From a virus, in IMG/VR virus record IMGVR_UViG_3300030419_001717, positions 6,373 to 70,372 of that record: DNA of 64,000 nucleotides; one strand, 5' to 3'. Shown here piece by piece: positions 10,928 to 27,184 of this stretch; position 1 is the first letter of the stretch, and every line of letters begins with the position of its first letter. Both the position numbers and the translations under genes were made by a program. The notes beneath the pieces were generated by a model. The model did no database searches, was not told the origin of the DNA, and saw only the letters and a program-made list of their open reading frames with translations.

Positions 10928-11934
10928 TTCCCCTCCTTATTCCAAAACTCATATATATTAGTATCTAACTCAAAGTCTTTCCATTCTTTCCTTTTATGTT
11001 GTGGTGCTTTCTGTGCCCACTCCCACATCTTAGTTAGCCCTTCTTCTAAATCTATTCTATGTTTAAAATCTAATAGTTCTACAGACTTATCCCACGTAGA
11101 CCATGCATATTTAGTTTCATGACGTGGTTCTAGATGTACTGGTTTTAAATCAGTTCCTGTTACTTTGAGTAATACATCACACGCATCGTTGATTGTATAT
11201 TCTTTAATACCACCTAGATTAATAATCTCTCCTATACATTTATCTGATTGTGATGCTTTCCATAAAGGTTCAAGTGCATCATCTATATAACTAAACGCTC
11301 TCTTCTGTTTTCCATCACCAAATATGGTAGGGGGTATATCATTCATAATCTGGTACATCCAAATGCCTAATACGTTTCTATATCTGTCCCAGATATTTTG
11401 GTTACGTCCATAAAAATTATGTGGACGAACCACTGTATAATTTAGGCCATGCTGGCGGGCTGCGACTTCCAAGTCTTGTTCTACTGCGTATTTAGCTATA
11501 CCGTAAGGGTCAATCGGGGTGGGTAATAATTCTTCACTAAATGGGGGTGTGTGAATGTCCCCATAGACTGCCATCGAAGATGTGAATACAAAACGTTCTA
11601 TGTCGTGTTTAATACTGTTAGTAATTAAGTTAGTCGATGCAATCAAGTTATTCTCATAGTTATGTTTTCTCATAAAAGGACTAAGCCCTTCAGCTGCATA
11701 GGCAGCCATATGATAAACAATATCTATCTTGTTCTCTTTAAACATTAAGTCTACATACTTAAGTTCTTTTAAGTCATAGCTATATAGTTTAACGCCTAGG
11801 TTTACGTTCTCTAGATATCCACCACTGAAGTCATCAACTCCTATGACTGTATGCTCTGTGTTATCTAAAATCCAGTCAGCTAAGCGAGAACCTAGTAGCC
11901 CTCCTACGCCTGTTATTAAAATTGTTTTATTCAT
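10924..11934 (-). CDS. NAD-dependent sugar epimerase/dehydratase
   Basis: TGVGGLLGS, TSSMAVYG, YGIAK (YxxxK) and GDGKQKRAF motifs. Confidence 0.93.
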   Translation of the reverse strand: MNKTILITGVGGLLGSRLADWILDNTEHTVIGVDDFSGGYLENVNLGVKLYSYDLKELKYVDLMFKENKIDIVYHMAAYAAEGLSPFMRKHNYENNLIASTNLITNSIKHDIERFVFTSSMAVYGDIHTPPFSEELLPTPIDPYGIAKYAVEQDLEVAARQHGLNYTVVRPHNFYGRNQNIWDRYRNVLGIWMYQIMNDIPPTIFGDGKQKRAFSYIDDALEPLWKASQSDKCIGEIINLGGIKEYTINDACDVLLKVTGTDLKPVHLEPRHETKYAWSTWDKSVELLDFKHRIDLEEGLTKMWEWAQKAPQHKRKEWKDFELDTNIYEFWNKEGK

Positions 11935-11943
11935 CAATAAGCT

Positions 11944-12354
11944 CTATTTATCACTGCTATTTTCGAACACCGTAATCTTTGCATCCTTTGGGAGTTCTAA
12001 GCTCCATGGAGGCACATACCCTGTATCGCATGAACAGTTATGCATCCCGTGTTCACAAATACAGCTTGTTACGACTGTGACATTTTCTCCTTTGGTCTCT
12101 CGTGCTATTTTGAGCAAAATGAGATATCCTATCAAATCGTCTAGTGTATCTTCTGTTGCATCATCGAGCCCATTGTTTTTAATTCTAGAGAGTTTATCGT
12201 CGATACGTGCACAGATGGCCTGTGCGTTATCGAGCTTACTAAAAATATTATCAGGCTCCAGAGCTGAATCTCCATAAGCCTTGTTCTTGCTTAAGAGCAA
12301 GTCGCGAATCTCATTACAAGTCCACTTGATATTATTCTGCGTTTTTTTCGACAT
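11944..12354 (-). CDS. Nucleotide modification-associated domain 1 (DUF1599-like) protein
   Basis: KNKAYGDS...RIDDKLSRI...DTLDDLIGYLIL; C-terminal CxC..CxC. Confidence 0.8.
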   Translation of the reverse strand: MSKKTQNNIKWTCNEIRDLLLSKNKAYGDSALEPDNIFSKLDNAQAICARIDDKLSRIKNNGLDDATEDTLDDLIGYLILLKIARETKGENVTVVTSCICEHGMHNCSCDTGYVPPWSLELPKDAKITVFENSSDK

Positions 12355-12633
12355 AGTTTTTTCACTAAAAGTAGTAACTACTCAGAGTATATAAAACTTT
12401 CTGTTAACATAACATATAGACATATTAGCCTGCCTTGAAATGCTTACTCTATATAATATATCTATATAGCTATTACTCTATTAAGATACTACTTTCAAAA
12501 TTTACCCGATTTGTTTAGACCCCTACACGACATATGACACCATGGCCCCCTCGTGATTTTAGACGGGGGGTGGAAAAAAAATAAGATAAAATAATAATAG
12601 TACTAAATAAATAATAATTACAAAAATATGTAA

Positions 12634-12730
12634 GCGGGACGTATATCGCACTATATATACTCCCTCGTTCCTTATATACTAAAACCAGCGATACCCTTAT
12701 ATACTTGGTTGCTATAAGTAATATAGAGGT
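12634..12730 (+). promoter_or_regulatory. Multi-TATA early promoter module 1
   Basis: TATAT-N5-TATAT..-N13-TTATATAC-N17-TTATATAC-N6-GCTA-N11-GAGGT. Confidence 0.75.
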
Positions 12731-12737
12731 AAAAGAA

Positions 12738-13059
12738 ATGACAACAACCGTAACACAACAGCAAGTAGCACAACACAACAAGGCAGTAATAGCCCGTGTA
12801 GTAGCCCAACACATTTGGGCCCAGACCAGTAGGGTAGCTACTACTACCAGACACAGCCAATGGAGTAGGTAACTATGAAATGGCTTGAGGTAGGTAGCCT
12901 ATCCGTAGGTGACCCAGAAGAGGTATTAGACAAGCTTAATGCATTACTAACTAAAACAATAAATGAAGCACAAAAACAAATGGAGGAAAAGAAATGAACT
13001 ATAGAAACTTTTTAGTAAACTACTTAGTAACAGTATCTTACGCAACCCGTAAGCTGTAA
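12738..13059 (+). CDS. Three coupled micro-ORFs: 12738-12872 (44 aa), 12875-12997 (40 aa), 12994-13059 (21 aa)
   Basis: GAGGT SD after module 1; near-abutting or ATGA-overlapping junctions. Confidence 0.6.
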
Positions 13060-14122: not shown

Positions 14123-14219
14123 TCGGGTTCTATATTGGGGTATATAAGTCCCCACGACGTTTATATACTAATTTGACCCAAACCTTTAAATACTTTCTTG
14201 CTACAGGTATTATAGAGGT
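14123..14219 (+). promoter_or_regulatory. Multi-TATA early promoter module 3
   Basis: GTATATAA-N13-TTATATAC-N17-TTAAATAC-N6-GCTA-N11-GAGGT. Confidence 0.8.
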
Positions 14220-14333: not shown

Positions 14334-14364
14334 ATTAGGTTTAAAGGGGTAGCTCCCCTTTATC

Positions 14365-14840
14365 GTGAGTGGCTGAATAATCCCTTCCCAAAGGGGATAA
14401 GGCACACAACACCCTTGACCAACGGACAAGTGTCTGAGGGATAGGTGAGTGGTAGGCGCGGACACAATACTTAGGTATTTGGGCCGGTGGTCCTTGTGGG
14501 TTAACCTTGAATCCCACCTCACACCCGCTTAGGGGAACCGTGGAAGCTATCGACTGCTTCCCGACCTAAAAAGATGAAAATAGCAAAATAGTATTGCAAC
14601 CCTAAGCACCTTATTGTTATTGCTGATTGCAACAGCTTTAATAGTCGGGTATAATCCGACTTAAAATAATGTCTGTCGCCGGACAACGAATGGCGAAGCG
14701 TAAAACAGCACACAGGTTAAGAGTGTTGCTTCCTAATCAGTTAGGGACACAAGAGCTTGTGTGACTGGAGTGACTATAGCACTCGCGGTTGGAAGCCCGT
14801 GGTTAGCGTGAGGGGTTCTGGAGCACCCCAACAGACAACC
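14365..14840 (+). ncRNA. Candidate large structured ncRNA 1 (about 475 nt)
   Basis: No plus-strand ORF; more than ten hairpins and long-range stems (GTGAG/CTCAC, GCTTAGGG/CCCTAAGC, TGTCTGT/ACAGACA); immediately upstream of the tRNA. Confidence 0.65.
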
Positions 14841-14853
14841 TTATTATTCTAGT

Positions 14854-14929
14854 GGAGTCGTAGTGTAGTGGCCCAGCATTTAAGGCTTTCGACCTTAAGA
14901 CCCGGGTTCGAATCCCGGCGACTCTGCCA
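14854..14929 (+). tRNA. tRNA-Glu (anticodon TTC)
   Basis: 76-nt cloverleaf: acceptor GGAGTCG/CGACTCT, anticodon arm TAAGG-CTTTCGA-CCTTA, T arm CCGGG-TTCGAAT-CCCGG, encoded CCA. Confidence 0.95.
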
Positions 14930-14969: not shown

Positions 14970-15067
14970 CCGGAACCTATATCGCAGTATATAAACCCCC
15001 TCGATACTTATATACCTTTTTGAGAGAAACCTTTAAATACTCTCTCGCTACAAGTAAAATACGAGGT
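14970..15067 (+). promoter_or_regulatory. Multi-TATA early promoter module 4
   Basis: GTATATAA-N13-TTATATAC-N17-TTAAATAC-N6-GCTA-N12-GAGGT. Confidence 0.8.
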
Positions 15068-19959: not shown

Positions 19960-20365
19960 TATGGCTAAAAGAGTCAGACCTAAGAAACATTTGTATTGGC
20001 ATAGTCAGGCGAAAGTCCTATTAGAACATGGAATGACTCCTACTAATGTAGCTAAAGCCTTAAAGGTAGTATACCCACAAGGGGAAATTACAGGTAGGCA
20101 CGTTGGAGGATATAAACGTAGACTAATTAACGATGATATGTTAACGAAAGGACTTCCACTTACTATTGATATGCAAGATGCAATAGGAATGGTAGAAGGA
20201 TTAGTTGGAGAAGATGATAGGTTTATCTATCATTGCACAATAGGTTCAGCTAAAAGAACACTAAAATGTTTTGAATATAAAATGTTAAAAGAATTAGTAG
20301 ATGAAAAAGCTGAAGAGGATATAGAAGAATGGTTATCAAACACGAACCACACTACACTGATATAG
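19952..20365 (+). CDS. Hypothetical protein, possible HTH
   Basis: GMTPTNVAKAL...ITGRHVGGYKRR resembles a helix-turn-helix. Confidence 0.55.
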   Translation: MINMAKRVRPKKHLYWHSQAKVLLEHGMTPTNVAKALKVVYPQGEITGRHVGGYKRRLINDDMLTKGLPLTIDMQDAIGMVEGLVGEDDRFIYHCTIGSAKRTLKCFEYKMLKELVDEKAEEDIEEWLSNTNHTTLI

Positions 20366-22482
20366 ATAGTTGGGCTGACGTAGCCGACGACGATTACTGC
20401 TACGAATGTAGTAAGTGGATTGAAGCAACATCAGAGGACTGTTGTCCTATATGTGAAACACCACTGAACTACGATGATGAGTATACGTCTGCGATGACAG
20501 CAAAGACATCATTATCTGATGCACCAAAGGTAAATACATACACCGGAGACATATGGAATCGGGGTAAGTCCTACGTTTGGGGCGGAGGTAATAGCTGGTG
20601 GAACAGTGGTAGTTCTGCATATACCGGTGGAGTATCGAGTATGTGGGGTAGTTGGAGTAGTAGTCATAATTCTGAAGATACTGCTTCTCGACTGCTTAAG
20701 CATAAGAGACATTTAGATTCTTTATGTAAAGTTGTAGACCCAACAGTAGCTCATAAGTTAGATTATAACTTTCATGGAAAAAATTATTCAGATTTGAATA
20801 GAGGAGTTATACGTATAGACGGCAGTCTACTGAAGGAAAGTGATGATAACTTAGACATATGTGCTGGTTTAGCCATACATGAAAAGTTGCATCTTATCCA
20901 TAGTAAACCATTATTGAAATGGGAAAGAGATTATAACTATTCTAATAATATGGACCACGCTGAAAAGAATTTATTACATACTATTGCTAATACAGTAGAA
21001 GATGAATATATAGAAAAGCAGTTAGCTAAAGATAATGCTGGTTTCGTGACATATATAGCTGAAGTAAAGAAACACTTCTTTGATACAGAGATGGAAGATA
21101 AGCTTCTAAAGGAAGGACAGAATGAGTTTATGGATATACTCAACACTCTGTTAGCTTTTGTTAGATGGCCTATCGAACTGAGTGCTGAACGTAAACGTAA
21201 ACATGCTAAACATATAAGATATTTCGCACGAGCATTAGCGACAGGATTAGATAGTAGAGACAATACTTTCAAATGTATAGAATCTTTGTATATGTATCTT
21301 AAAGAAATAGCTAAAAGAATGGCTAAAGAGAAAGGCGAAGAAGGTATAGATGATGAAGTTAAAGAAGAGTTAGAAAGGCTTACTGATAGTATGAGTGATT
21401 CTGATGAGATGTCTGAAGAAGAAACGGAAGCAATGAAAGATGCTATCCGTAAGAGTATAGAAAGAAAAAGAGAACGTATGTCTGATGTAGCCAAAGCGAT
21501 AGACTCTGATGAACTACGTGACTTAGCAAAGGTAGTAGACTATAACGAAAAAGCCATAGAAGATACGTTAGATGAAGAGTTAGCAGAAGCTATTAAAGAG
21601 CTTGAAGATGAAGATTTTCATGAAGAAGATATAAAGGATGTAGGTCTTATATATAAGAACCAAAGGAAAATCACTTGGCGTAAAGCACGTAGTGATGACC
21701 ATGCTAAAGATAGATATATCTTTGAATCTAAGAAGATGAAGAAACAATCTAATCAGTTAAAGCGTAAGATAGACTTATATGGTAATACTCAAAAACATAT
21801 CATACGTAATCAAAAGCGTGGTAAGATAGATAAAAGAATGCTTCATAGGATACCTGCTGGTCGTATGGATTTATTTAAGAATGATATAATTCAAGATGAT
21901 AAACCATTAGACATATGTATATTGGTAGATGAATCAGGTAGTATGGGTTCATGGAAAATGGAGATGGCCAGACAATCAGCCATAGCAACCAAAGAAGCTT
22001 TAGAAGATAACCCTAAGTTAAACTTATGGGTGTTTGGACATACAGCTGATGGTGAAAAAGGATGGCATACTGACACAGGGTCAACTAATATGACTGAATA
22101 TTATTCACCACGTATGAAAGATAGACCCTTTGCAATAGGTAATATGAGGGCCAGATATGAAAACCGTGATGGTAATGCAATATATGCGGCCGCTGAAAAG
22201 GTTAGTAAGGAATCCGAACAACCTATGTCTAACAAGCTTATGATTATATACTCCGACGGACAACCAGCCGCTGATAGATATGGTGGTATGGATAGTAGGA
22301 GACACGTAAGAAAAGTAGTAAGCTACTTAGAGGCTAAAGGATGGGCCATTATACAAGTAGGTATAAGTGGTGCAAACGAATGGTGTCAGAAAGAAATGTT
22401 TACTAATCATATAATGGTTAATGATATAGAGAATCTTGCTCCAGAAGTAAGTAAAGTAATAAGGAGGGTGATAAAAGTATGA
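20329..22482 (+). CDS. VWA-domain protein (CobT-like MoxR partner) with HExxH motif
   Basis: MIDAS DESGSM, SDGQP, HEKLH...EDEYIE, and an N-terminal CxxC..CPxC. Confidence 0.88.
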   Translation: MVIKHEPHYTDIDSWADVADDDYCYECSKWIEATSEDCCPICETPLNYDDEYTSAMTAKTSLSDAPKVNTYTGDIWNRGKSYVWGGGNSWWNSGSSAYTGGVSSMWGSWSSSHNSEDTASRLLKHKRHLDSLCKVVDPTVAHKLDYNFHGKNYSDLNRGVIRIDGSLLKESDDNLDICAGLAIHEKLHLIHSKPLLKWERDYNYSNNMDHAEKNLLHTIANTVEDEYIEKQLAKDNAGFVTYIAEVKKHFFDTEMEDKLLKEGQNEFMDILNTLLAFVRWPIELSAERKRKHAKHIRYFARALATGLDSRDNTFKCIESLYMYLKEIAKRMAKEKGEEGIDDEVKEELERLTDSMSDSDEMSEEETEAMKDAIRKSIERKRERMSDVAKAIDSDELRDLAKVVDYNEKAIEDTLDEELAEAIKELEDEDFHEEDIKDVGLIYKNQRKITWRKARSDDHAKDRYIFESKKMKKQSNQLKRKIDLYGNTQKHIIRNQKRGKIDKRMLHRIPAGRMDLFKNDIIQDDKPLDICILVDESGSMGSWKMEMARQSAIATKEALEDNPKLNLWVFGHTADGEKGWHTDTGSTNMTEYYSPRMKDRPFAIGNMRARYENRDGNAIYAAAEKVSKESEQPMSNKLMIIYSDGQPAADRYGGMDSRRHVRKVVSYLEAKGWAIIQVGISGANEWCQKEMFTNHIMVNDIENLAPEVSKVIRRVIKV

Positions 22483-22595
22483 ACACAGTATTATGTAATA
22501 CGTGCCGATGTAAGTTAGCACTAAACTATGTAAGATATAGAGATACTGCGGGTAATCCATATTGCCACGTATGCTATCAGAGGTTATTGATATAA
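22479..22595 (+). CDS. 38-aa zinc-finger microprotein
   Basis: CNTC...CHVC; ATGA and TAATG overlaps with both neighbours. Confidence 0.65.
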   Translation: MNTVLCNTCRCKLALNYVRYRDTAGNPYCHVCYQRLLI

Positions 22596-23080
22596 TGCAA
22601 ACTTTCTTACCCGTAGCTGACTTTAGAAAGTCAGCCAAAATGTTAGATTATAAACGCTTAGGTAAGCAAAGAGTAGAAGGTATGCAACTACTTAACGCTA
22701 TGCAACCCGATTATGATAAAAAAGGTTGGCTTAAACATCCTGCAAAGATAATGTGGGAAGGTTATCAAGACATGCTTAAGAAGTATGTTAACGTTATGAT
22801 AGAAGAGTGGATTAGTAGAGGATATAACAATACAATGCAGTTCTATGAGTATGACGCATCTGCACCTATGCCTGATTGGATAGGTAATGACAAGATACAC
22901 AAGTCACATAGACTCAATCTATTGCGTAAAGATTTCCAATACTATTCACAGATATGGCCCGAAGAAGCTATACAGTATGCATTTGAAATAGAATCATATC
23001 CTTACTATTGGCCTGTTGGTGATAAGTTTAGAGTATCTACTCCAGATAGAACAGGAACCAGATGGGAGAGTGAATTATGA
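22595..23080 (+). CDS. Pyrimidine-dimer DNA glycosylase/endonuclease V-like protein
   Basis: MQTFLP...LD.KRLGKQRVE..Q, HPA..MW.GY, SHR.NLLRKD and Y.WP motifs. Confidence 0.88.
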   Translation: MQTFLPVADFRKSAKMLDYKRLGKQRVEGMQLLNAMQPDYDKKGWLKHPAKIMWEGYQDMLKKYVNVMIEEWISRGYNNTMQFYEYDASAPMPDWIGNDKIHKSHRLNLLRKDFQYYSQIWPEEAIQYAFEIESYPYYWPVGDKFRVSTPDRTGTRWESEL

Positions 23081-23303
23081 GTAGTTATTGGACTGAAGAT
23101 AGAAAACAGAGAGTAGTAGATTATATCTCTGGGTTTATCTTTGGATATTGTATAGGGATGATAGTAGGAGTATGGATTCTATAATAGAAAGATTAAAAGC
23201 TATATGGAGTAATCCACGTGACATACAAGAAGCTGAATGGTATATACTAATAGGCTTCTTTATTATGATATGGATGTGGATGTTTATATGGCACGGTTCT
23301 TAA
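23077..23303 (+). CDS. Two single-TM microproteins (23077-23184, 23172-23303)
   Basis: 35 and 43 aa, hydrophobic C-termini, overlapping. Confidence 0.55.
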
Positions 23304-23314
23304 ACAAGGTGATA

Positions 23315-23382
23315 GGATAGAAGTGACAACCTTATTTCTTAAACAGTTGTTTGGCTCATTTTACCTCTCGTTGCTTCTATCC
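23315..23382 (+). ncRNA. Hairpin with an anti-SD/anti-AUG loop
   Basis: 13-bp stem GGATAGAAGTGAC/GTTGCTTCTATCC; the loop contains CATTTTACCTC. Confidence 0.5.
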
Positions 23383-23388
23383 CACTAA

Positions 23389-23953
23389 ATGTGGTAGAGA
23401 CCTGAATCATACGCCCCAAAGTCGCTGAGAAAGATATAATGACTGAGCCACATGATATGGCCCAAACAGGTGAGATATACATCTGATGCTATAAGCAGAC
23501 GATACACATCTCTGGAAAACTGTCGTTATATCTGTGTCGCTGGTGAGGAATATAACTATTGAAACACCTGAAGCAGTTATGCAGATGGACTGAATCCCGT
23601 AGAGATTCTATACAGTAGAAACTATTGGACCTTTAGTTATATATGTATACCGTCGTTGGACAAGAATGGATACGCAGAACGCTACGTTGGATAGCGTCAA
23701 TACGCAAGTTATACTTAGACCGGACACTTAGTAGGTGAGTAGCGGTATGGATGCTACTCATAAAGAGAACCAAACGTAGGAGGTATAACCTGACTACCCT
23801 GTCTTATGGTTATACAGCTAATCATTATGCACTACCTATGTGTCAAGCGAACCTACTAAACATATAGCATGGACCCGTTGTCAAGGAGTAAGCTGTAAGG
23901 CCCGCATAGGGCGAGTGATAAACAAGGACATATTCGTCGGTGAGAAGCACATC
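23389..23953 (+). ncRNA. Candidate large structured ncRNA 3 (about 565 nt)
   Basis: ORF-free gap in a dense operon; stems GATATAATGAC/GTCGTTATATC, TGAGTAGCG/TGCTACTCA, TTAGTAGGT/ACCTACTAA, ACGCTA/TAGCGT, GAATAT/ATATTC. Confidence 0.65.
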
Positions 23954-24151
23954 TATATATGCTTAGTTTTGTTTGGGGTTATATCTCTCTCTACCACAAA
24001 CTTTAAATAGATATTTGATATATATTGAAATAACAAATGGAGGTTTTGAAAAAATGGTAAGAGAATTTATAGTATGGTTAGATAAAAAATTCGGTTTTAG
24101 TAGTAAGAAACTAATGATAAGACCCAGAAAATATAACAAAGGTAAATAAAC

Positions 24152-24427
24152 ATGAGACAAATGAAAGAAAGTAACATCGAACAGATGACAACAATAAGCG
24201 GTGATATAAAAGACACCGATGATAGCGAAGAAGGTCGTATGCTTAAACGTATACGAGAAGCAGAAGAAATGATAGGCACCATAGCTGAGATTATATGGGC
24301 ACAGGAGCCACTAAGATTTCAGGACCAATGGCTTGAACATATAATGGCTAAGGGTATATGGGCACCTGACCCAGACTTAGTAGAGGGTATGAAGAAGGAG
24401 GAAGAAGATGGTGACGACGAAGAGTGA
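24152..24427 (+). CDS. Acidic hypothetical protein
   Basis: 91-aa ORF. Confidence 0.7.
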   Translation: MRQMKESNIEQMTTISGDIKDTDDSEEGRMLKRIREAEEMIGTIAEIIWAQEPLRFQDQWLEHIMAKGIWAPDPDLVEGMKKEEEDGDDEE

Positions 24428-24711
24428 AGCTATACATATACTTCACCTACTCAAACAGTATATGACACCAAGAGTTATGTCTATGTTTATCGCAGACTTA
24501 GATTTTGAAGTAGCTGAGAATACTGATAACGAGTCTTTAAGAGATAGTATAAAGATGGTTAGGGATTATATGCGTGATTCACAATGAAAGTAGTAGTAGA
24601 TAATGTAGAGATATTAGATATAACTCTCGGTTTATATGGTAATGTTTTTGTGCGTGTTAAAGATATTGATGGATATGAATATGCAGGTGAGCTAACAGAA
24701 GTGGAGAAAGA

Positions 24712-25572
24712 ATGATAGATAGACCAAAGTTTAAAGAATTGATATATAGAGCTGAGAGAGAGATACCTATTAGATATGATATGGTCCAATTAAAAATGGA
24801 TGGTATATGGGGTTGTCTCGTTATAAATAATGGAACGTGGAGAATATTCTCACGAACAGGTAAAGAGAAACGTAAAGGTGAGTTTCCTGATAAGAAAGCA
24901 GATGCAATATTATTAGGTGAATTCATGTATGGTTCCCATTGGGGACATATGCGTGGTTTAGATGGTGAGTTTTATATTTTTGATTGTCTAAGATATAGAG
25001 GTAAAGATTTAAAAGATAGAGACCTTAAGCATAGATTAGTTGTAGCTGACTTAGCGTGGCAAGAATACAAAAAAGATTTAGAGTGGCTTGATATATTACA
25101 AAATTATGAGTTAGAAGATTGGCCTCACTTATGGGACCATGAAATCCTTGAAGAAGGATATGAAGGTCTTGTGTTTAAGGATAGCACAAGTGAGTATTCT
25201 GATAAAGGTGCGTGGGCAAGAATGAAAGCTGTTGTAGAAATAGAATATATCTGCCACGCATTTAGACCAGCCGATGAAGGCACAAGGTATGAGGGACAAG
25301 TAGGTGCAGTGATAGGAACACTACATGATAAAGAAGTATATGTGACGTGTGGTGGTCTTACAGATGAGATGCGTCTTGAGTTTACTAACAACCCTGAGCC
25401 TTATATCGGACAAGTGTTTAAAGCAAAAGGTAATACGTGGTATCCATCTGGAAGCTTAAGACATCCCAAGTTTATGCATTGGAGGGATGATAAAGAACCA
25501 ATAGAATGCACGTATGACCAAATACCTGAGAGTATAAGAGAAGGTCTGGCAAAAGCATATGTTTCTCGATAA
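24712..25572 (+). CDS. lig: ATP-dependent DNA ligase
   Basis: KMDG motif I, ILLGE, IFDCL, EGLVFK, and an OB-fold ending SLRHPKF..WRDDK. Confidence 0.92.
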   Translation: MIDRPKFKELIYRAEREIPIRYDMVQLKMDGIWGCLVINNGTWRIFSRTGKEKRKGEFPDKKADAILLGEFMYGSHWGHMRGLDGEFYIFDCLRYRGKDLKDRDLKHRLVVADLAWQEYKKDLEWLDILQNYELEDWPHLWDHEILEEGYEGLVFKDSTSEYSDKGAWARMKAVVEIEYICHAFRPADEGTRYEGQVGAVIGTLHDKEVYVTCGGLTDEMRLEFTNNPEPYIGQVFKAKGNTWYPSGSLRHPKFMHWRDDKEPIECTYDQIPESIREGLAKAYVSR

Positions 25573-26581: not shown

Positions 26582-27184
26582 ATGAAAGAAGTGATGAGAA
26601 AATATAGCACCACATTTTTTGAATGTATGAAAGATTGGCCTGAACATATTAAACAAGACATATATAAGTTATATGCCTATCTAAGAGTATGTGATGAAGT
26701 AGTAGAAGGTCAAGAGGACTACAGTGCTAGTGAGAAAATGAAGATAACTAAAGAGTTCCATGAAGTATTTGATAGGTATGAGATGGAAGGTAAGTGGCTT
26801 GATTCATTCCATCATGCTATGTTAACTGATTTAAATAAAAAGAAACATACTATAGTGTCAATGTTAGAATACTGTAAAGGTTCTTCTGAGACAGTAGGAC
26901 TTATGATGTCACGTATCTTAGGGTGTCCACCTGAAGCAGATGAATATGCAAAGGCTTTGGGTAGAGCATATCAAATAATAAACTTCGTTAGAGATTATGA
27001 AGAAGACATAGAGAAGGGATATCATTATATAGGTGAAGACCATACATTATACCTATTACTCTTTATAGAAGAGTTAGAAACAGCTATGGAAGGAATCAAT
27101 TACATACCAGAAGATTTGCGTGGTCCTATTATTAAAGCTAACCAAGCATACATAGAGGTGGCACGTGAAGCCAACTTACTATAA
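26582..27184 (+). CDS. Squalene/phytoene synthase family protein (CrtB/HpnC-D-like)
   Basis: YSTTF, LYAYLRVCDEVVE, YC.G....VGLMM and LGRAYQIINFVRDYEED..KG..YI. Confidence 0.88.
   Translation: MKEVMRKYSTTFFECMKDWPEHIKQDIYKLYAYLRVCDEVVEGQEDYSASEKMKITKEFHEVFDRYEMEGKWLDSFHHAMLTDLNKKKHTIVSMLEYCKGSSETVGLMMSRILGCPPEADEYAKALGRAYQIINFVRDYEEDIEKGYHYIGEDHTLYLLLFIEELETAMEGINYIPEDLRGPIIKANQAYIEVAREANLL

What the first reader, a model, noticed from the sequence alone, without database searches (positions are those of the whole stretch)
23389..23953. Third large ornate RNA candidate (~565 nt, ROOL-sized) interrupting a gene-dense operon
Seen: the only long ORF-free gap in 17.6-42 kb. Stems include an 11-bp GATATAATGAC 23433/GTCGTTATATC 23522, long-range TCGCTG..GAATAT 23537/ATATTC..CGGTGA 23930, TTAGTAGGT/ACCTACTAA, TGAGTAGCG/TGCTACTCA, ACGCTA/TAGCGT, GAATC/GATTC, ATAACT/AGTTAT and GCCC/GGGC, with terminal ATGTG/CACAT. 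Crossing pairings such as GACAC/GTGTC suggest pseudoknots or alternative folds. Its size is similar to ROOL, but identity cannot be judged by eye.
Basis: partly seen in the sequence, partly recalled or inferred. Interest (0 to 1): 0.8.

Follow-up and report, generated by a model that had tools for sequence, protein, structure and literature searches.

The report
Modular giant RNA of marine viruses
The gap holds a real, roughly 680-base folded non-coding RNA of an uncultured marine virus, built as a conserved clamp of paired ends around a shuffled set of folded modules, and it matches no catalogued RNA family.

Summary
The element is real but larger than stated: 23315-23998 on the + strand.

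It has three parts:
- a conserved 5' hairpin (23315-23382);
- a roughly 30-bp closing duplex that joins 23390-23429 to 23962-23998;
- an interior of nested, independently folding modules.

About 55 relatives in marine metagenomes and 8 viral contigs keep the hairpin and the closing duplex through compensatory changes. Their interior varies from 134 to 614 nt. It is a mosaic of at least 12 recurring modules whose number, order and nesting differ between relatives.

One module, a three-way junction at 23728-23859, shows clear covariation: 83% of cells paired, 14 of 24 pairs changed on both sides, and 0 of 500 shuffles as good.

No Rfam 15 family matches, in the window or in its relatives. That rules out ROOL, GOLLD and group I/II intron models.

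Contigs from four marine metatranscriptome studies lie on the element.

G.U versus A.C asymmetry points to the + strand. Folding energy does not decide the strand.

The function is unknown. My inference is a stable RNA carried in a polycistronic transcript and clamped, perhaps processed, at its closing stem. It may work with a conserved 31-aa basic peptide encoded just downstream.

Verdict: a new large modular viral RNA family.

The parts
23315..23386 (+). 5' hairpin ('hairpin 1'). The stem is GGATAGAAG 23315-23323 / CTTCTATCC 23374-23382, with a 50-nt loop that holds the conserved TTGGCTCAT..TTACCTC. CACT follows the stem. The hairpin starts 12 nt after the stop codon of the upstream 51-aa ORF.
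   Evidence: In 45 unique sequences the three stem positions that my search pattern left free give 392 Watson-Crick and 13 G.U cells, with 0 A.C and 0 other mismatches. Four stem variants occur: AA/TT, GA/TC, GG/CC and TA/TA. The GGATAG, TATCC and TTACCTC letters were fixed by the pattern, so their conservation is partly by construction. L085 and L087 carry a hairpin of different sequence at the same place.
23390..23429 (+). 5' strand of the closing duplex: P1 23390-23400 (TGTGGTAGAGA), internal loops, P2 23414-23420 (CCCCAAA), P3 23425-23429 (CTGAG).
   Evidence: P1 in 20 type-A sequences has no mismatch, and three positions switch G-C to A-T on both sides. P2 has 9 arm-pair variants, most of them fully paired. 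Type B and type C frames have other sequences that still pair.
23962..23998 (+). 3' strand of the closing duplex: P3' 23962-23966 (CTTAG), P2' 23972-23978 (TTTGGGG), P1' 23988-23998 (TCTCTACCACA).
   Evidence: The duplex between the first 48 nt and the last 52 nt is -36.8 kcal/mol in the window (shuffles average -14.5; 0 of 200 as good). In 35 of 35 complete elements this duplex is stronger than any duplex with an interior window. It is also recovered by the unconstrained fold.
23433..23532 (+). Domain S1, closed by GATATAATGAC / GTCGTTATATC. It holds CCCAAACAGGTGAGATA and CTCTGGAAAACTGT.
   Evidence: The helix is in the minimum-energy fold. The core motifs recur in 4 and 5 of 45 elements, at different offsets. 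L063 keeps GATATAAC/GTTATATC.
23534..23727 (+). Domain M2, closed by GTGTC.C.GGT / ACC.G.GACAC. It holds GCTGGTGAGGA and CTTAGACCG. In the window it is expanded by nested inserts, including hairpin 23679-23685 / 23690-23697.
   Evidence: The closing helix covaries in 10 sequences (GTGTC/GACAC, GTTCT/AGAAC, ATGTC/GACAT, GTGCT/AGCAC) and encloses 53 to 175 nt. The nested hairpin ACGCTAC/GTAGCGT has 3 compensatory changes against L063.
23728..23859 (+). Module B, a three-way junction. Ba is 23728-23736 / 23851-23859, Bb 23737-23743 / 23753-23759, Bc 23774-23780 / 23835-23841. The joining strands AGAGAACCAA and GTCAAGCGA are invariant, and there is a conserved 10-nt loop TAATCATTAT.
   Evidence: Covariance model R1 finds 21 copies in 47 sources, at E from 2.7e-27 to 2.3e-9. 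With the corrected structure 83.0% of cells pair, 14 of 24 pairs change on both sides, 0 of 500 shuffles reach the covariation score, and slid controls pair in 33-46% of cells.
23883..23928 (+). Module C: conserved AAGGAGTAAGCT .. GAGTGATAAACAAGGA around a variable hairpin (GCCC/GGGC in the window).
   Evidence: Both halves are present in 6 of 45 elements, at offsets from 383 to 609. The hairpin is replaced by a different one in L063 and is absent in L014 and L018.
24001..24009 (+). CTTTAAATA box directly after P1'. I read it as a promoter-like box; this is an inference.
   Evidence: AAAC(C)TTTAAATA also stands before two other short genes, at 14184 and 15031. There are 8 copies in the window against 2.4 expected. 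The box follows P1' in 31 of 35 complete elements; in the other 4 an AAGGAGTTAATATG start region follows P1' directly.
24054..24149 (+). 31-aa basic peptide gene (MVREFIVWLDKKFGFSSKKLMIRPRKYNKGK). It is a syntenic neighbour and a possible partner; the partnership is not shown.
   Evidence: A homologue of 30-34 aa lies 53-256 nt after the box in 27 of 31 loci that have at least 500 nt downstream. It has no Pfam or PHROG family (tested as the 58-aa frame).

Best explanation
Window 23315-23998 (+ strand) encodes a member of a previously uncatalogued family of large, modular, structured non-coding RNAs of uncultured marine tailed viruses.

Shown:
- The RNA has a conserved frame: a 5' hairpin directly after the upstream stop codon, plus a roughly 30-bp irregular closing duplex (P1-P3) made by the two ends.
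- The frame encloses a multi-branch interior of self-contained modules (S1, M2, the three-way junction B, C and others). Between relatives these modules differ in number, order and nesting, so interior size runs from 134 to 614 nt.
- The frame and the modules are kept by compensatory substitutions.
- RNA-library contigs from four studies lie on the element.

Inferred:
- The RNA is transcribed with the upstream genes, because no promoter-like box precedes it.
- The closing duplex clamps the interior and probably marks it for double-strand-specific processing, as with rRNA precursor stalks or the T7 intergenic RNase III sites.
- The interior then accumulates as a stable trans-acting RNA that acts as a scaffold or decoy. 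The swappable modules would bind viral or host factors, possibly including the 31-aa basic peptide encoded just downstream.
For: Family and frame:
- A pattern scan gave 61 metagenome loci, of which 55 are true on inspection. Eight viral contigs also carry the element.
- After removing duplicates there are 45 unique elements, 35 of them with both ends.
- Hairpin 1: 392 Watson-Crick and 13 G.U cells, no mismatches, four covarying stem variants.
- P1: no mismatch in 20 type-A sequences, with three positions changed on both sides. P2 has 9 variants.
- Type B and type C frames have other sequences that still pair.
- The closing duplex is stronger than any interior alternative in 35 of 35 elements. 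It beats all 200 shuffles in 28 of 35. The median is -34.5 kcal/mol.

Modules:
- Module B: 21 model hits. 83% of cells pair, 14 of 24 pairs change on both sides, 0 of 500 shuffles are as good, and slid controls pair in at most 46% of cells.
- M2 closing helix: 9 arm-pair variants in 10 sequences.
- Against L063, whole hairpins are replaced by different hairpins.
- Module order differs between relatives. M2 lies before B in 6 elements and after B in 4, and C lies at offsets from 383 to 609.

Other evidence:
- Full-length fold: z -3.23.
- No Rfam match.
- Strand: G.U events in hairpin 1, P1 and P3 far outnumber A.C events.
- Expression: 7 metatranscriptome runs from 4 studies hold part of the stretch. 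In the 4 runs laid, one per study, 25 contigs lie within 23402-23906, with summed contig depth up to about 380 in X1. One contig's loose end jumps from 23636 straight into a module-B-like sequence, which is a relative with a different module layout.
Against: - Thermodynamics does not favour the + strand. The - strand folds to -178.6 kcal/mol with z -5.10, against -175 and z -3.23 for the + strand.
- In the module B alignment G.U (16) and A.C (14) cells are about equal, so the strand call rests on the frame helices alone.
- Many G.U cells are inherited copies of a few events.
- The RNA-library evidence comes from assembled contigs only. It shows no ends, no strand and no level, and DNA carry-over cannot be excluded (tool notes).
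- Processing at the closing stem, trans action and peptide binding were not tested.
- Parts of the frame (GGATAG, TATCC, TTACCTC) were fixed by my search pattern, so the metagenome set is biased toward them.
I corrected this only when counting.
- About 100 nt of the window's interior (23540-23637) has no homologue, so its fold is a prediction only.
Confidence: 0.72

Rival explanations
1. It is a cis-acting leader or intergenic regulator. The structure is the 5' UTR of the downstream small-ORF operon (or the 3' UTR of the upstream gene). It would control translation or mRNA stability rather than act as a free RNA.
For: The element fills the whole intergenic space, from 12 nt after the upstream stop codon to the downstream start region. 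In 4 of 35 complete elements the 3' arm of P1 is followed directly by AAGGAGTTAATATG. Synteny with the basic-peptide gene holds in 27 of 31 loci. In most members the hairpin 1 loop carries ACCTCC/ACCTCT, which resembles an anti-Shine-Dalgarno sequence.
Against: In 31 of 35 elements a conserved CTTTAAATA/TTTATATA box, which also precedes other genes, separates the RNA from the downstream gene. Interior content and size vary 4.6-fold and the modules are shuffled, which is not how known riboswitches or leaders behave. The ACCTC loop motif was imposed by my pattern, and L085 lacks it. No target for the loop was found elsewhere in the window.
Confidence: 0.13
2. It is a DNA-level feature: a hotspot where mobile elements or recombination cassettes insert (MITE-like or intron-like), or a replication or packaging site with hairpins. 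No functional RNA would be involved.
For: Close relatives differ by large insertions or deletions between conserved flanks. G002 has about 120 nt where the window has about 535 nt. Modules recur in different orders, as mobile cassettes would. The - strand folds at least as well as the + strand.
Against: The conserved flanks pair with each other and covary. Stems tolerate G.U but almost never A.C in the frame. There are no group I or II intron model matches at E up to 10, and no host gene is interrupted. No module copies occur elsewhere in the window. Modules are nested inside the loops of other modules while helices stay intact. RNA-library contigs lie on the element.
Confidence: 0.08
3. The functional transcript is on the minus strand: an antisense RNA, or the long leader of a minus-strand mini-ORF.
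For: On the - strand the conserved hairpin 1 loop reads GGAGGTAAAATATGAGCCAA, a canonical ribosome-binding site plus ATG.
Against: In the window the - strand reading frame is only 6 codons long, and its length and sequence differ between relatives (read). The frame helices carry G.U pairs that would be C.A on the - strand: 13 versus 0 in hairpin 1, and 9 sequences in P3. All neighbouring genes from 18 to 42 kb are on the + strand.
Confidence: 0.05
4. It is a divergent, unrecognised protein-coding stretch.
For: Short ORFs exist here: 56 aa on the + strand at 23840-24010, and 40-47 aa on the - strand.
Against: Relatives differ by indels of 1, 2, 4, 8 and more nt and by whole-module swaps across these frames. 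Substitutions are paired across helices rather than codon-like.
Confidence: 0.02

Closest known systems
ROOL and GOLLD RNAs (large 'ornate' RNAs of phages and prophages; Rfam families; cryo-EM structures in PMC12286853, of which I read passages)
   Same: It is several hundred nt long, virus-encoded and multi-branched, with conserved loops and junctions and no known protein-coding role. It appears abundant in RNA libraries, and its function is unknown. GOLLD also has one conserved part and one variable part.
   Different: It matches neither covariance model. It is not beside a tRNA island; the only tRNA lies 8.4 kb away. Here the two ends are conserved and the interior is a shuffled set of modules, whereas GOLLD has a conserved 3' half. 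Multimer or nanocage formation is untested.
Processing stalks of rRNA precursors and the intergenic RNase III sites of T7 early transcripts (textbook knowledge, recalled)
   Same: A long, irregular duplex formed by sequences that flank an RNA inside a polycistronic transcript, sitting exactly between two cistrons.
   Different: Cleavage is not shown here. The enclosed RNA is not rRNA, and T7 sites enclose nothing.
Y RNAs / bacterial YrlA (recalled)
   Same: The 5' and 3' ends pair into a conserved stem that carries a variable, modular effector domain. Phage-encoded examples exist, and an RNA or DNA ligase gene is nearby in some loci.
   Different: There is no Rfam Y-RNA match, no Ro/Rsr gene was seen in the ORFs I scanned, and this RNA is much larger.
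Candidate structured RNAs of viruses from IMG/VR (Fremin and colleagues 2023, PMC10690425; I read passages, and the supplements were closed)
   Same: They were mined from the same kind of viral intergenic regions. Pieces such as hairpin 1 or module B could be among the 8,495 unnamed 'DNAVirus_X' candidates.
   Different: Those candidates are 29-151 nt long. No 600-nt modular RNA is described in the text that I read.

Membership tests
ROOL RNA | Match to the Rfam covariance model at or above its gathering score | tested here: not met
   No ROOL row appears at the gathering threshold over the whole window, nor at E up to 10 over 23000-24300. None appears in 15 relatives at gathering or in 14 relatives at E up to 0.5.
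ROOL RNA | Located in phages or prophages, often beside tRNA islands | tested here: inconclusive
   It is in a virus record. However, the only tRNA, at 14854-14929, lies 8.4 kb away.
ROOL RNA | Homo-octameric nanocage | not testable with these tools
   This needs native gels or cryo-EM.
GOLLD RNA | Match to the Rfam covariance model | tested here: not met
   No match.
GOLLD RNA | Universally conserved 3' region with a less conserved 5' region (PMC12286853, passage read) | tested here: not met
   Here both ends are conserved and the interior varies.
Group I intron | Match to Rfam group I models | tested here: not met
   No match at E up to 10.
Group I intron | Interrupts a host gene whose exons join into one frame or one RNA | tested here: not met
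   The flanks are a stop codon plus a hairpin on one side and a promoter-like box plus a separate gene on the other.
Group II intron | Match to Rfam group II / domain V models, and usually an RT-maturase ORF | tested here: not met
   No match, and no ORF longer than 56 aa lies inside.
drum RNA (RF02958) | Score at or above the gathering score of 43 bits | tested here: not met
   The score is 19.1 bits at E 0.82 over 23920-24043, with several non-pairing positions in the alignment.
RNase III-type processing stalk | A long duplex formed by the two flanks of the enclosed RNA | tested here: met
   35 of 35 complete elements have it, with a median of -34.5 kcal/mol. The helices covary.
RNase III-type processing stalk | Cleavage within the duplex, giving discrete ends | not testable with these tools
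   Only assembled contigs were available, with no read ends.

The most novel reading that the evidence does not exclude
This would be a new class of giant viral RNA built on a principle not described for natural RNAs. A conserved clamp (a 5' hairpin plus a roughly 30-bp closing stem) acts as a universal holder. A repertoire of at least a dozen autonomous folded modules is exchanged, permuted and nested within it between related viruses, an RNA-level cassette array. The RNA would be abundant in the ocean's RNA pool. It would work as a ribonucleoprotein or self-assembling particle in which each module engages a different host or viral factor, for example in an arms race with host defences.
Probability: 0.35. 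Interest if true: 0.9.

Novelty: new variant of a known kind. Interest (0 to 1): 0.8.

Why it matters
Large, intricately folded non-coding RNAs outside the ribosome are rare, and each new class (OLE, GOLLD, ROOL, raiA) has opened a line of structural and functional work.

This family adds a marine viral example with an unusual architecture:
- The ends are fixed, while the folded modules inside are swapped, reordered and nested between relatives.
- That gives a natural experiment in RNA domain shuffling.
- It also gives a ready set of small autonomous folds, such as the three-way junction B, for structural study.

Three features suggest testable biology in virus-host interaction: its signal in metatranscriptomes from four studies, its fixed position in the replication gene block, and its tight synteny with a 31-aa basic peptide.

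Tried and rejected
Searches that found nothing or were rejected:
- Rfam: gathering scan of the window, E up to 10 on 23000-24300, 15 relatives at gathering, and 14 relatives at E up to 0.5. The only hit was a sub-threshold drum match, which I rejected.
- blastn of the region against 50,697 phage records: no match.
- Exact 23- and 25-nt flank patterns in viral contigs found only G002.
- The genome-contig scan with the hairpin pattern gave 5 hits, all unrelated coding or other sequence on inspection. This places no family member in 185,579 species genomes at that stringency. It is not proof of absence.
- A trans target for the hairpin 1 loop: none in the window.
- Module copies elsewhere in the window: none.

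Analyses that were uninformative or needed correction:
- RNAalifold on the gappy module B alignment, both strands, was uninformative.
- G.U versus A.C counts in module B gave 16 versus 14, also uninformative.
- My first P1 count used a wrong register (P1 block) and was redone by columns.
- Model R1 had helix Bc shifted by one column (30.8% paired). The count was repeated with the corrected structure. Helix Bb remains partly mis-registered there (69.7% paired), because two subtypes differ by a bulge.
- L050 is a true member that I dropped by mistake from the unique set and from every count.
- Six metagenome loci (L019, L021, L024, L034, L046, L068) and L086 were dropped as false pattern hits.

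RNA libraries:
- No contig of the four runs laid lies on 22400-23401 or 23907-24900.

Host and literature:
- Host identity was not resolved. Pfam and PHROG scans of 29 ORFs and tblastn with the family-B polymerase (at most 24% identity) did not settle it. That the TTTAAATA/TTTATATA box resembles an archaeal TATA box or a T4-type late promoter is recalled knowledge and untested.
- Three full-text searches listed no description of such an RNA. I read passages of PMC10690425, PMC12286853 and PMC5737381. Supplements were closed, and they could hold short candidates that overlap parts of this family.
Full report
WHAT IS THERE

The window is part of a 70,372-base IMG/VR virus record that CheckV rates as complete. 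Around the finding all genes run on the + strand. In order they are:
- an AAA ATPase of the CbbQ/CobS type;
- a CobT-like VWA protein (20329-22482);
- a DenV-type pyrimidine-dimer glycosylase (22562-23080);
- a 51-aa membrane ORF (23148-23303);
- the ORF-poor stretch under study;
- small ORFs, an ATP-dependent ligase (24712-25572), RecU and others.

IS IT MORE THAN CHANCE?

Comparison with relatives moved the boundaries. A related viral contig (G002) matches the window at 87-89% identity on both sides, but has about 120 nt where the window has about 535 nt. The conserved flanks are complementary to each other:
- TGTGGTAGAGA 23390-23400 with TCTCTACCACA 23988-23998 (P1);
- CCCCAAA 23414-23420 with TTTGGGG 23972-23978 (P2);
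- CTGAG 23425-23429 with CTTAG 23962-23966 (P3).

Folded from 23387 to 24000, the + strand gives -175 kcal/mol and z -3.23, with 0 of 20 shuffles as good. The unconstrained fold recovers P1-P3 and the module helices.

THE FAMILY

How members were found:
- Degenerate patterns built on the 5' hairpin found 5 viral contigs and 61 metagenome loci.
- Inspection showed 6 of the 61 to be unrelated sequence.
- A pattern built on module B found two more viral contigs, L085 and L087. They have the same gene order but a different hairpin and a different P1 (type C). It also found one false hit.
- After removing near-identical copies there are 45 unique elements (L050 was left out by my mistake). Of these, 35 have both ends.
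- One metagenome contig (L047) carries an element identical to the window's.
- No member was found in 185,579 species genomes with the hairpin pattern: 5 hits, all false.

The frame is held by compensatory change:
- Hairpin 1 shows four covarying stem variants and no mismatch in 405 cells.
- P1 in 20 type-A sequences has no mismatch, and three positions switch from G-C to A-T on both sides.
- P2 has 9 arm-pair variants, for example CCCCAAA/TTTGGGG, CCCTAAA/TTTAGGG and CCCAAGA/TCTTGGG.
- Type B elements use GGTGAAG/CTTCACC or GCGACGAAGG/CCTTCGCCGC instead. Type C uses GCACAAAGG/CCTTTGTGC.
- In 35 of 35 complete elements the first 48 nt pair with the last 52 nt more strongly than with any interior window. 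In 28 of 35 they beat all 200 shuffles.

THE INTERIOR

The interior is 134 to 614 nt long and is a mosaic. Simple motif tracking finds recurring modules in different subsets and at different offsets:
- M1 in 13 elements;
- M2 in 10;
- B in 21;
- C in 6;
- a CCCCTGTAAATC..GATGNGTTTGGT module in 6;
- an AGGATGAAAG..GTTCGTGAGAAGCA module in 5;
- and others.

Order changes between relatives. M2 precedes B in the window, L023, L053, L056, L061 and L078, but follows B in L018, L020, L032 and L044. M1 follows B only in L062.

Modules also nest. In the window the M2 hairpin is expanded from 53 to 175 enclosed nt, and the Bc arm of module B carries an extra hairpin that other members lack.

MODULE B

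Module B (window 23728-23859) is a three-way junction with invariant joining strands AGAGAACCAA and GTCAAGCGA.
- A covariance model found 21 copies, with E from 2.7e-27 to 2.3e-9.
- I had shifted one helix by a column when building the model.
- With the corrected structure 83.0% of cells pair and 14 of 24 pairs change on both sides.
- 0 of 500 shuffles reach the observed covariation score, and sliding the partners by 1-3 columns drops pairing to 33-46%.
- The alignment was fitted to a model, so it leans toward the structure. The slid control and the many two-sided changes argue against an artefact.

OTHER HELICES

Against the best collinear relative, L063, whole hairpins are exchanged for different ones at the same place:
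- ACGCTAC/GTAGCGT becomes ACGTAGC/GCTACGT;
- GTATAACC/GGTTATAC becomes ATATATC/GATATAT;
- GCCC/GGGC becomes CGCAT/ATGCG.

The M2 closing helix has 9 variants in 10 sequences.

WHICH STRAND?

Energy does not decide. The - strand folds to -178.6 kcal/mol with z -5.10.

The frame helices do decide:
- Hairpin 1 has 13 G.U and 0 A.C cells.
- P3 has G.U in 9 of 20 type-A sequences.
- P1 has U.G variants.
- A.C occurs once or twice in P2.

On the - strand those G.U pairs would be C.A mismatches. Many G.U cells are inherited copies, so I count roughly eight independent G.U events against one or two A.C events. Module B adds nothing to this (16 versus 14). All neighbouring genes are on the + strand. 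I put the + strand at about 9 to 1.

NOT CODING, NOT A KNOWN RNA

- The longest ORFs are 56 aa (+) and 47 aa (-).
- Relatives differ by indels that are not multiples of three and by module swaps.
- Rfam 15 gives nothing at the gathering score in the window apart from a tRNA and a borderline manA hit elsewhere.
- At E up to 10 it gives nothing in 23000-24300 except chance-level rows. The best is drum, at 19.1 bits against a threshold of 43.
- It also gives nothing in relatives.
- ROOL, GOLLD and the group I and II intron models are therefore not matched.

EXPRESSION

Seven metatranscriptome runs from four studies hold part of the stretch. I laid one run from each study. 21, 2, 1 and 1 contigs lie on 23402-23906, at 90-100% identity, with summed contig depth up to about 380 in X1.

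These are assembled contigs. They show presence in RNA libraries, not ends, strand or level, and uncovered flanks are no evidence. One loose end joins 23636 directly to a module-B-like sequence, which is a relative with another module layout present in the RNA pool.

CONTEXT AND LIKELY WORKINGS

- The element starts 12 nt after the upstream stop codon and has no promoter-like box before it.
- In 31 of 35 cases it ends directly at AAC(C)TTTAAATA or TTTATATA. In the window this box also precedes two other short genes, and it is over-represented: 8 copies against 2.4 expected.
- In the remaining 4 cases a ribosome-binding site and ATG follow P1.
- A 30-34-aa basic peptide gene follows in 27 of 31 loci.

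From this I infer, without a test, the following. The RNA is made as part of the upstream transcript. Its roughly 30-bp irregular closing duplex clamps the interior and probably marks it for double-strand-specific processing, as in rRNA precursors and T7 intergenic sites (recalled knowledge). The interior then accumulates as a stable RNA.

Because only the frame is universal while modules come and go between close relatives, I read the frame as a holder and the modules as exchangeable working parts (binding sites or a scaffold). The peptide is a candidate partner by synteny only.

COMPARISON AND NOVELTY

The closest known things are the large phage RNAs ROOL and GOLLD. They are similar in size, viral origin, ornate folds, abundance and unknown function (PMC12286853 and PMC5737381, passages read). 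Membership fails on the model match and on architecture.

Three literature searches found no description of a modular RNA of this kind. A 2023 survey of IMG/VR intergenic regions lists 8,495 unnamed candidates of 29-151 nt (PMC10690425, passages read).

I rate this a real, new family: a new variant of the kind 'large structured viral RNA'. There is a fair chance that its clamp-plus-shuffled-modules design is new in principle.

LIMITS

- The host is unknown.
- There are no read-level RNA data.
- About 100 nt of the window's interior has no homologue.
- The family set is biased by the patterns used to find it.
- Function and processing are inferred.

Noticed in passing
window 14184-14192, 15031-15039, 24001-24009: AAAC(C)TTTAAATA boxes stand about 35-45 nt before the start codons of short genes. 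CTTTAAATA occurs 8 times in the window against 2.4 expected. I take it for a shared promoter-like element of this virus. It resembles an archaeal TATA box or a T4-type late promoter (recalled, untested).
   Followed up: partly
window 14342-14527 and 14854-14929: There is a manA RNA match that only just reaches its Rfam threshold (55.5 versus 55.2 bits) and a tRNA-Glu(UUC).
   Followed up: no
window 24054-24149; homologues in 27 of 31 related loci: A conserved basic peptide of 30-34 aa (consensus about MIRELLVWLDKRLGRSKKKMILRPRNYGNK) lies always just downstream of the RNA. It has no Pfam or PHROG family.
   Followed up: partly
L003 versus window 22562-23080: The DenV glycosylase gene sits at a different place in the related contig: between the homologues of window ~28.4 kb and 28.6 kb, rather than between CobT and the small membrane ORF. 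This is a gene transposition between close relatives.
   Followed up: no
L086 (reverse strand, about 11,900-12,900 of the oriented locus): An unrelated viral contig carries a long array of about 20-25-nt imperfect repeats of the form GAGAGAACCA..AGCGAGCCA. It looks iteron-like, and it hit my module B pattern by chance.
   Followed up: no
L075: In this contig the element breaks off after about 100 nt and continues into sequence antisense to the CobT-like gene (window 22482-22330). This is either a rearrangement or an assembly chimera.
   Followed up: no
window 26582-27184: A 200-aa squalene/phytoene-synthase-like protein (PF00494, 1.5e-27) is encoded in the viral replication block. This is an unusual auxiliary gene.
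   Followed up: no
window 23347-23369 (- strand): Read on the minus strand, the conserved loop of hairpin 1 is a canonical ribosome-binding site plus ATG (GAGAGGTAAAATGAGCCAA). It opens only a 6-codon frame in the window and frames of varying length in relatives. Why this sequence is conserved is unexplained.
   Followed up: partly
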